This document shows positions 261 to 1,031 of a stretch of 64,000 nt of DNA, piece by piece (position 1 is the first letter of the stretch; every line of letters starts with the position of its first letter). Origin of the DNA: Octopus vulgaris (lineage: Eukaryota); the NCBI GenBank assembly GCA_951406725.2, contig OX597824.1:92504001-92568000 (forward strand). The letters are read 5' to 3'. The position numbers and the translations under genes are program-made. The notes below the pieces were generated by a model that searched no databases, was not told where the DNA came from, and worked only from the letters and a program-made list of their open reading frames with translations.

Positions 261-1031
261 ATAAGTTTAACAATTAAGGATAACCTCTTAATAAGGAATC
301 TTAACAAGAAATTATCGGGTAGTTAGCGTGAAAACCTCATAAAAGAAAAGAATTCGAAAATAATTTTTTTCTTTTGAACAAATTAATTATATCTATATTG
401 TATAGAGGGCATTATTACACATAAATGCCTCACACTAAGAGGGACTAAGTCATTACTACCAAAATTATACTAATCATACCCAAATGCAGTTTTTCAAAGC
501 AAGACATTTAAAAAAATGAATTTAGTTCTGTATCACCGTGATTTCACATTCAACTTGCGTCTTATGATCCTCAGCAGAACTGATTCTGAACACATCAAAA
601 ATAAACTACCAACCTTACGTAGCGAAGACGACCAGACAACTGATCACTCCGGCCAAGCACATGGAATGTTTATAAATCATATATCCGGTAAATGGCGGGC
701 TTTTCACGAACTGCATGTCGGGTAATAAAAAGTATTTCGGAATAAGTTTAACAATTAAGGATAACCTCTTAATAAGGAATCTTAACAAGAAATTATCGGG
801 TAGTTAGCGTGAAAACCTCATAAAAGAAAAGAATTCGAAAATAATTTTTTTCCTTTTGAACAAATTAATTATATCTATATTGTATAGAGGGCATTATTAC
901 ACATAAATGCCTCACACTAAGAGGGACTAAGTCATTACTACCAAAATTATACTAATCATACCCAAATGCAGTTTTTCAAAGCAAGACATTTAAAAAAATG
1001 AATTTAGTTCTGTATCACCGTGATTTCACAT
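261..1031 (-). mobile_element. Partial tandem (1.6 units of 481 bp) non-coding retroelement with hammerhead ribozyme; retrozyme / Penelope pLTR-like
   Basis: Direct repeats 261-549 and 742-1031 are identical except one extra C. Flanked on both sides by (TA)n. Contains the HHR at 524-581. Confidence 0.85.
524..581 (-). ncRNA. Type I hammerhead ribozyme (complete)
   Basis: Minus strand: AGTTCTG-CTGAGGA-TCATAAGAC(GCAA)GTTGAATGT-GAAA-TCA(CGG)TGA-TA^CAGAACT. 7-bp stem I, CUGANGA and GAAA cores, stem III, AUA cleavage triplet. Predicted cut between + positions 531/530. Confidence 0.85.

What the first reader, a model, noticed from the sequence alone, without database searches (positions are those of the whole stretch)
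261..1031. Young 481-bp non-coding unit in a 1.6x tandem carrying a complete type I hammerhead ribozyme: candidate cephalopod retrozyme / circular RNA element
Seen: two ~289-bp direct repeats differ by a single C (period 481-482), there is no ORF of note, and (TA)n flanks both sides. On the minus strand (581-524) lies a full HHR with 7-bp stem I, CUGAGGA, a GCAA-capped stem II with a U-U closing mismatch and an AA/GA internal loop, GAAA, stem III and AUA. The insertion starts inside the upstream ribozyme copy, ~19 nt before its cut site. Known: non-LTR retrozymes of metazoans and the pLTRs of Penelope-like elements are tandem units with type I HHRs, and retrozymes yield circular RNAs. Inference: a more-than-unit-length copy that crosses the cleavage junction is what reverse transcription around a 481-nt circle (or along a multimer) would leave.
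Basis: partly seen in the sequence, partly recalled or inferred. Interest (0 to 1): 0.9.

Follow-up and report, generated by a model that had tools for sequence, protein, structure and literature searches.

The report
Hammerhead retrozyme with Penelope-type insertion scars
A 481-base non-coding repeat carrying a self-cutting hammerhead RNA motif has been copied to many places in this animal genome, and the shape of its insertions suggests that a Penelope-type jumping-gene enzyme copies it, possibly by running round an RNA circle; the class is known, but evidence of this kind is uncommon.

Summary
In detail: a 1.6-unit tandem (period 481) in a (TA)n run, with a minus-strand type I hammerhead at 581-524. 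It is not a one-off. The family has at least 315 intact-core hammerheads in this genome, and there are two sister families at about 75% identity. Between two families 7 of 20 ribozyme pairs change on both sides while the core stays. Insertions end at two fixed sites 127 nt apart. Inverted two-arm insertions pair one end of each kind (34 of 37; 21 of 21 in an unbiased test), as a young Penelope-like element (PLE) in the same genome does (4 of 4, 40-nt spacing). 5' ends show no stop at the cut site. Arrays are uniform in sequence type and reach 7.5 units here, 31 in a sister family. No coding partner with shared sequence was found. Best reading: a non-LTR retrozyme moved in trans by a PLE enzyme priming twice. 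A circular template is plausible, not shown; cleavage and expression are untested. The start 19 nt before the cut is not meaningful. The scan reported similar PLE-type tandem units in other genomes (e1-7810660, e1-7881736).

The parts
261..741 (-). One complete 481-nt unit (unit position q1 = 741, q481 = 261)
742..1031 (-). 5'-truncated upstream copy (q193-q481) with one extra C; holds only the 3' half of the hammerhead (1031-1006, cut position 1013/1012)
524..581 (-). Type I hammerhead motif: stem I 7 bp, CUGAGGA, stem II with basal U-U, GAAA, stem III, AUA; predicted cut 531/530
518..586 (-). Hammerhead with the outer 4-bp extension of stem I beyond a C/AA internal loop, also kept in family 2
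261..270 (-). 'Far' 3' end (q472-481): inferred reverse-transcription start site, used by this copy and by 55 of 104 arms
386..394 (-). 'Near' 3' end (about q354): second inferred start site, not used by this copy, used by 42 of 104 arms
261..387 (-). 127-nt 'tail' between the two ends, equivalent to the 30-40-nt PLE tail
   Evidence: PMC11167929, PMC8557442
319..459 (-). Predicted 3' domain closed by a long-range helix (about q283-311 with q412-423) around the near site; mostly invariant, weak covariation, candidate enzyme-recognition structure
   Evidence: prediction only
177..263 (.). (TA)n target, 3' side of the insertion
1030..1198 (.). (TA)n target, 5' side of the insertion; a target-site duplication cannot be read inside the microsatellite

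Best explanation
A young non-autonomous retroelement of the non-LTR retrozyme type, moved in trans by the RT/GIY-YIG protein of a Neptune/Nematis-type Penelope-like element. Shown in sequence: unit, hammerhead anatomy, copy number, (TA)n targets, two fixed 3' ends, head-to-head arms with unlike ends, uniform arrays. Inferred: (1) tandem copies are transcribed and the hammerhead cuts out 481-nt monomers that a host ligase closes, as shown for coral, mussel and axolotl retrozymes; (2) the PLE protein, probably a dimer, cuts both strands of a (TA)n run, one strand priming at q481 and the other at q354 of the same RNA lineage; (3) each cDNA runs a variable distance, through the intact cut site, for up to 7.5 units; (4) the two cDNA ends are joined head-to-head, often at palindromes or hairpins, or one arm is joined straight to the TA run, as in this window. 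I put PLE-driven, two-site priming at 0.85 and a circular rather than linear multimeric template at about 0.55.
For: 3' ends: 55 far, 42 near, 2 at q329 and 5 other, of 104 arms. All 55 far ends and 38 of 42 near ends abut TA-rich DNA. All 37 two-arm insertions are head-to-head; 34 pair a far with a near or q329 end, and none pairs two far or two near ends. Unbiased coordinate test: 21 of 21 head-to-head neighbours are far+near. The same rule holds in family 2 (14 of 14 have one far end, none has two), family 3 (3 of 3) and autonomous PLE family A (4 of 4 head-to-head loci, 40-nt spacing). A purified PLE protein cuts and extends both strands and starts at two internal RNA sites that define the tail (PMC11167929). 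Opposite arms never conflict at diagnostic sites (28 of 28) and 52 of 58 multi-segment loci have no diagnostic mismatch, against a median of 8 between loci. Divergence within arrays (0.17-0.29%) approaches that between loci of one subfamily (0.29-0.63%), and 53 of 63 locus-private changes sit in a single unit, so most arrays look born at length. There is no pile-up of 5' ends, and 170 of 171 segments across the cut carry no indel there. Hammerhead: 7 of 20 pairs change on both sides between families; shared variants fall only at N7, the GNRA N and the internal loop (4 of 4 in loci not picked on the ribozyme). Family A frames are 98.8-99.9% identical in 14 of 15 comparisons, so an intact enzyme is of similar age.
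Against: No sequence link to any PLE: a two-family profile hit 1 of 70 GIY-YIG loci, and that hit is a separate neighbouring insertion. Similarity to family A's end region is no better than shuffles (73 and 60 of 500 score as well). The tail is 127 nt against 30-40 nt in known PLEs. In vitro the PLE protein used uncleaved linear RNA and did not need the hammerhead (PMC11167929), so circles are not required. Within-array divergence is below between-locus divergence in 3 of 4 subfamilies, 8 of 63 private changes are shared by a subset of units, and 3 of 32 units in the 31-mer share one variant, which points to some later amplification or conversion. The basal U-U pair weakens stem II and the hammerhead is not the predicted minimum fold. 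Only 1 of 9 predicted Xenopus retrozymes cleaved in vitro (10.64898/2026.07.22.740005). The covariation comes from two lineages, so each pair is one event.
Confidence: 0.82

Rival explanations
1. Same PLE-driven insertion, but the template is a linear, uncleaved multimeric transcript from a few master arrays. The hammerhead is a passenger or makes circles that are dead ends.
For: Uncleaved RNA is the main substrate of the purified PLE protein (PMC11167929). Subfamilies are star-like at 0.3-0.6%, as a few master loci would give. Long uniform arrays exist that could act as masters.
Against: No fixed 5' end among 104 arms. Subfamilies that differ at a median of 8 diagnostic sites almost never form mosaic arrays, which needs a monomer bottleneck followed by re-multimerisation. 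The hammerhead core is kept across three families while stems turn over.
Confidence: 0.35
2. Inverted arms arise by fold-back of one cDNA (self-priming at a hairpin) and later nicking at the second site, not by two primers.
For: The two arms start within 3 nt of each other in 6 of 37 and 6 of 11 loci, against about 1.5% expected. Arms always share a sequence type. Self-priming was proposed for PLE palindromes (PMC3846280).
Against: Either end can carry the long arm (near arm 2759 nt with far arm 346 nt in L018; far arm 3575 nt with near arm 92 nt in L149). 26 of 37 junction pairs lie more than 60 nt apart. Fold-back alone does not explain why like ends never pair. Palindromic microhomology between two cDNA ends gives the same excess.
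Confidence: 0.25
3. The unit is the pseudo-LTR of an autonomous PLE that was not sampled, and these loci are its truncated or ORF-deleted copies.
For: The order hammerhead, start site 1, start site 2 matches a PLE pseudo-LTR. Xenopus retrozymes are related to pseudo-LTRs (10.64898/2026.07.22.740005). Only 150 of 6136 GIY-YIG candidates were scored and 70 loci read.
Against: Unit joins unit directly in every array. No PLE frame runs into the unit in 77 pieces. The hammerhead is full-sized, unlike the minimal motifs seen beside PLE family E and at window 70-99. Three families have kept the 480-500-nt period independently.
Confidence: 0.12
4. A DNA-level satellite or rolling-circle DNA element whose arrays grow by unequal exchange, with a chance hammerhead look-alike.
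For: Some unit variants are shared by subsets of an array. No Rfam hammerhead match.
Against: Strand-specific fixed 3' ends, variable 5' truncation, inverted heads, dispersal over many contigs and structure-keeping substitutions.
Confidence: 0.03

Closest known systems
Metazoan non-LTR retrozymes (Cervera and de la Pena 2020, PMC7229834; coral, mussel, axolotl)
   Same: Low-GC non-coding tandem unit with one full-sized type I hammerhead per unit. The U-U at the base of helix II is also described for axolotl HHR_Amex2. Strongly self-paired unit (z -4.28 linear, -3.88 circular). Coexists with PLEs.
   Different: 481 nt is above their 150-450 bp range. RNA, cleavage and circles are untested here. 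In the sections read they do not describe fixed double 3' ends, inverted arms or (TA)n targeting.
Non-LTR retrozymes as non-autonomous PLE derivatives (Li, Clavereau and Pollet 2026, 10.64898/2026.07.22.740005)
   Same: Same class and same proposed driver. Unit length (51-972 bp) and array sizes fall in their range.
   Different: Their case rests on co-occurrence and pseudo-LTR homology, and they favour local tandem amplification. Here no homology was found, the case rests on insertion scars, and most arrays look inserted at length. No mollusc is named among the groups in the main text; their supplement was not seen.
EN+ Penelope-like elements, Neptune/Nematis/Naiad type (Craig et al. 2021, PMC8557442; Arkhipova et al. 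2013, PMC3846280)
   Same: Partial tandems, inverted 5'-truncated head, tail at one end only, (TA)n targets.
   Different: No RT or GIY-YIG frame; tail 127 nt rather than 30-40; full-sized rather than minimal hammerhead.
Anolis Poseidon element PAc in vitro (Frangieh et al. 2024, PMC11167929)
   Same: Two internal reverse-transcription start sites downstream of a hammerhead, both target strands cut and extended, AT-rich target.
   Different: PAc is autonomous, its two sites are adjacent (30-40-nt tail), and its template was linear and uncleaved.

Membership tests
Non-LTR retrozyme | Canonical type I hammerhead in each unit | tested here: met
   Core, three stems and NUH present; 315 intact-core matches; covariation; fold energy -9.9 kcal/mol, below the -5 cut-off used by Li et al.
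Non-LTR retrozyme | Head-to-tail tandem units of a few hundred bases, low GC | tested here: met
   481 nt, 33% GC; arms up to 7.5 units. Above the 150-450 bp of PMC7229834, inside the 51-972 bp of Li et al.
Non-LTR retrozyme | [quoted passage not shown] | tested here: met
   Met by the family (for example seven in a row at C5:64.66 Mb). Not met by the window copy, which has one complete and one half motif.
Non-LTR retrozyme | No protein coding, no LTRs | tested here: met
   Longest frame 83 aa; arrays abut (TA)n with no separate terminal repeat. PBS and PPT were not searched for.
Non-LTR retrozyme | Self-cleavage of the RNA | not testable with these tools
   Needs in vitro transcription.
Non-LTR retrozyme | Accumulates as circular RNA | not testable with these tools
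   Only assembled contigs were available, and a contig cannot tell a circle from a tandem.
Non-LTR retrozyme | Target-site duplication longer than 4 bp when present | tested here: inconclusive
   Ends lie inside (TA)n.
EN+ Penelope-like element (autonomous) | RT plus GIY-YIG reading frame | tested here: not met
   None in the unit, the window or the 9 kb before it. None running into the unit in 77 pieces; 4 pieces have a separate PLE fragment nearby.
EN+ Penelope-like element (autonomous) | Partial tandem with inverted 5'-truncated head | tested here: met
   37 of 67 clusters are two-armed, all head-to-head.
EN+ Penelope-like element (autonomous) | Tail at one end, from two start sites | tested here: met
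   Two fixed ends, unlike ends in 34 of 37 and 21 of 21.
EN+ Penelope-like element (autonomous) | Tail length 30-40 nt | tested here: not met
   127 nt in family 1 and about 125 nt in family 3; 40 nt in PLE family A.
EN+ Penelope-like element (autonomous) | (TA)n target preference | tested here: met
   95 of the 99 arms ending at a far, near or q329 site abut TA-rich DNA.
Derivative of a PLE pseudo-LTR | Sequence homology to the pseudo-LTR of an autonomous family | tested here: inconclusive
   No linked hit in 70 loci, but only 150 of 6136 candidates were scored.
Rfam hammerhead families | Score at the gathering threshold | tested here: not met
   No hammerhead match for the window motif. The family 3 motif matches HH9 at 16.3 bits, E 0.11, threshold 52.

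The most novel reading that the evidence does not exclude
These families are self-made RNA circles that a Penelope-type dimer copies by rolling-circle reverse transcription from two start sites held 127 nt apart in sequence but close in the fold. One event can then insert up to 15 kb (31 units) of tandem DNA with an inverted head. The circle would be recognised by structure, with no sequence left in common with its driver. That would be genomic evidence for the long-proposed circular intermediate, and a natural substrate for testing how PLEs finish an insertion.
Probability: 0.4. Interest if true: 0.75.

Novelty: new member of a known kind. Interest (0 to 1): 0.5.

Why it matters
How animal retrozymes move has been proposed (circle plus PLE enzyme) but argued mainly from co-occurrence and homology. 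Here the insertions themselves carry the PLE signature in countable form, with a rule (one far end, one near end) that ties the in vitro two-site start to genomic products. The 481-nt RNA and an intact 781-aa PLE protein of similar age sit in one genome, so the open questions (is the template a circle, does a dimer prime twice, what does the ribozyme contribute) become testable with two defined molecules. If the steps hold, it also shows a route by which a satellite-like array appears in a single event.

Tried and rejected
Rfam: no hammerhead match for the window motif at E up to 1 over 5 kb or E up to 10 over 161 nt. Special meaning of the start 19 nt before the cut: rejected; five 5' ends at q190-193 are not beyond a scan of many windows by my rough estimate. 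Reverse transcription stopping at, or jumping between, self-cleaved ends: no pile-up and 1 indel in 171 segments. Two different RNAs as templates for the two arms: no conflict in 28 of 28 loci. Autonomous partner: a Pfam accession recalled from memory is not in the library; 70 GIY-YIG loci gave no linked unit. L069 is a neighbouring family 2 insertion. HHR pairs 2.2 and 5.8 kb apart are copies interrupted by unrelated DNA (L142, L143). L153 joins a PLE fragment tail-to-tail at q184 with small duplications, read as a rearrangement and not as a chimeric cDNA. Short word likeness between family A's ends and the unit is not significant. Expression: no RNA holder listed; the three runs guessed to be RNA hold contigs of the unit at depth about 11-22, which DNA carry-over could give, so this is no evidence either way. 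No earlier finding matched by sequence or place. The supplement of PMC7229834 could not be read and bioRxiv supplements are closed; either could list a cephalopod family.

Full report
Coordinates. The window is G000:C11:92504001-92568000 in a 2.8-Gb assembly of 227 contigs. I number the unit on the minus strand, q1 = window 741 to q481 = window 261. The predicted cut is q211/212 (531/530).

Observation. The two repeats (261-549, 742-1031) differ by one C, the period is 481, GC is 33% and no frame exceeds 83 aa. (TA)n runs flank both sides. The hammerhead is as described, with a further 4-bp extension of stem I. Its fold scores -9.9 kcal/mol against a minimum of -12.9, it does not beat shuffles alone, and Rfam misses it. 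The whole unit folds better than shuffles (z -4.28 linear; -3.88 circular; plus strand -2.35).

Family size. A DNA search found 1723 candidates, scored 40 and returned 171 matches, whole units mostly at 96-100% identity. The exact window variant of the ribozyme occurs 36 times and an intact-core pattern 315 times, with 0 for the control. Exact 3'-end patterns gave 176 near ends and 104 forward far ends, the 156 reverse matches holding duplicates. On C1 to C6:127 Mb, 65 far and 62 near ends resolve to about 106 insertions, so a few hundred genome-wide is a fair lower estimate. Two sister families exist at about 75% identity: an older family 2 (about 497 nt, copies 82-94% to one member) and a young family 3 (480 nt, 490 matches).

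Is the ribozyme under selection? RNAalifold on 6 family 1 and 9 family 2 units recovered the three-way junction unprompted. Of its 20 pairs, 7 change on both sides, 97.7% of cells pair, and slid controls fall to 23-46%. These are two lineages, so each change is one event. Family 3 has again different stems I and II around the same core and stem III. The cleavage base is A, C or U and never G in the listed motifs, though the search pattern required this. Within family 1, in the 40 loci not chosen on the ribozyme, the 4 shared variants in q161-218 fall at N7, the variable base of the GNRA loop and the internal loop.

Insertion anatomy. I stitched loci into 64 pieces holding 67 clusters and 104 arms. 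Clusters under 100 bp were dropped. Two insertions split by later DNA (L142, L143) count twice. The sample leans to whole units and intact ribozymes. 3' ends fall at q470-481 (55), q350-359 (42), q329 (2) or elsewhere (5), and 95 of the 99 fixed ends abut TA-rich DNA. All 37 two-arm clusters are head-to-head. In 34 one end is far and the other near or q329; the other 3 have a broken end; none pairs like with like, where about half should by chance. Using only coordinates of exact end matches, 22 neighbour pairs lie within 8 kb: 21 are head-to-head and all 21 are far+near, and one is a same-strand pair. Of 13 further loci picked by their 3' end, 11 are two-armed and all 11 obey (six overlap the 21). 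Family 2 has one far end in 14 of 14 two-arm loci, with the other end near in 10. Family 3 obeys in 3 of 3.

5' ends and arrays. 5' ends are spread over the unit, with 3 within q206-218 against 2.8 expected; 86 of 104 arms cross the cut site and the longest is 7.5 units. One of 171 segments has an indel there. Family 1 splits into subfamilies by 28 diagnostic sites (segments under 40 nt or 89% identity dropped). 52 of 58 multi-segment loci have no diagnostic mismatch, 5 have one and 1 has four; opposite arms agree in 28 of 28; loci differ by a median of 8. Within-array divergence is 0.17-0.29% against 0.29-0.63% between loci of a subfamily. Of 63 private changes 53 are in one unit, 8 in a subset and 2 in all units of both arms. 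In family 3 one insertion spans 15.6 kb: a 514-nt inverted arm at the near end and 31.3 units to the far end, 99.9% identical, in (TA)n; one variant is shared by 3 of 32 units. Arm junctions overlap by a median of 2 nt, and the two arms start within 3 nt of each other in 6 of 37 and 6 of 11 loci.

The driver. A GIY-YIG search gave 6136 candidates, 150 scored, dominated by a family A with an intact 781-aa RT plus GIY-YIG frame (RVT_1 just under its cut-off). It carries a C-x4-C-x2-C linker, which PMC8557442 gives as the mark of Neptune and Nematis; I built no tree. It inserts in (TA)n, ends at two sites 40 nt apart, pairs unlike ends in 4 of 4 head-to-head loci, and 14 of 15 frames are 98.8-99.9% identical to one member. 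It shares no detectable sequence with the unit, nor do the other PLE loci read (1 hit in 70, a separate insertion). No PLE frame runs into the unit in 77 pieces; 4 have a fragment nearby. Family A is therefore a candidate by age and footprint only.

Mechanism. The footprint is that of PLE target-primed reverse transcription. Purified Anolis PLE protein cuts and extends both target strands, starts at two internal RNA sites that bound the genomic tail, is predicted to be a dimer, and does not need its hammerhead (PMC11167929). One strand primed at q481 and the other at q354 explains head-to-head arms with unlike ends. A circle explains the absence of a fixed 5' end, long uniform arrays and the lack of mosaics. 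A linear multimer from uniform master arrays explains most of this too, and fold-back explains the palindromic junctions, so both stay as rivals. Nothing here shows RNA, cleavage or circles.

Runs. No holder is on record as RNA. Four of 24 listed runs were laid. Contigs in X1 (509 nt, one full period plus overlap), X5 and X6 bridge the unit junction, which rules out an assembly artefact but cannot tell circle from tandem or RNA from DNA.

Literature seen. 10.64898/2026.07.22.740005: parts 1-3 of 5, abstract to discussion, supplements closed. PMC7229834: passages and parts 2-4 of 6, supplement unreadable. PMC11167929: parts 1-2 of 4. PMC8557442 and PMC3846280: passages only. Seven searches, judged on listings, showed no paper on a cephalopod retrozyme or on a count of unlike ends in retrozyme insertions. 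A tail at one end only is already described for PLEs. Most subscription papers and Repbase are not covered. Hammerhead numbering (N7, NUH, C3-G8) and the GNRA label are from my own knowledge.

Verdict. A real, young, new member of the non-LTR retrozymes, working like a non-autonomous PLE and not itself a PLE. The class is known. The added value is the countable two-site footprint, the long tail and the 31-unit insertion. Interest 0.5.

Noticed in passing
window 1-176 (continues 30 bp before the window), also 46358-46594 and 61048-61277: A separate ~205-230-bp repeat flanked by (TA)n, with a PLE-type minimal hammerhead-like motif (window about 70-99, minus strand; core CCGACGA in most copies, CTGACGA at 46435). 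Present in 26 of 251 sequences held, overlapping loci included. Probably a truncated end of another PLE family.
   Followed up: partly
L095:768-2207 and 2126-4471 (G000:C6:133.34 Mb): PLE family A has a second, upstream frame of about 470 aa (charged helical N-half, low-complexity C-half, no clear Pfam match) that overlaps the RT frame in another phase, suggesting a frameshifted ORF1.
   Followed up: partly
L095:638-690 and 5351-5403: Family A's pseudo-LTR holds a hammerhead-like motif with core UUGAUAA in place of CUGANGA (a U3-A8 pair by my reading), with stem II varying between subfamilies. Activity unknown.
   Followed up: partly
G000:C1:64639655-64655252 (L249, L250): Family 3 insertion of 15.6 kb: 31.3 near-identical units with an inverted 514-nt head, in (TA)n.
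   Followed up: yes
L199 and L109, 3' UTR: A second PLE family (E, 35-40% to family A) has a minimal hammerhead with a palindromic stem III; some copies are 99.6% alike.
   Followed up: no
L142:3752-5453; L143:3456-8743: Family 1 copies interrupted by 1.7-kb and 5.3-kb insertions whose ends resemble each other; the first duplicates q100-115.
   Followed up: no
L153:915-3753: A PLE family E fragment joined tail-to-tail to a rearranged family 1 array at q184, with short duplications at the joint.
   Followed up: partly
window 2842-3040: Inverted repeat with 93-nt arms, 90% complementary, 13-nt spacer; MITE-like, gives only sub-threshold miRNA matches.
   Followed up: no
G000:C11:92489429: A near-type family 1 end 15 kb before the window copy.
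   Followed up: no
window 47023-47511: A 229-bp, 2.1-copy tandem at 78% identity.
   Followed up: no
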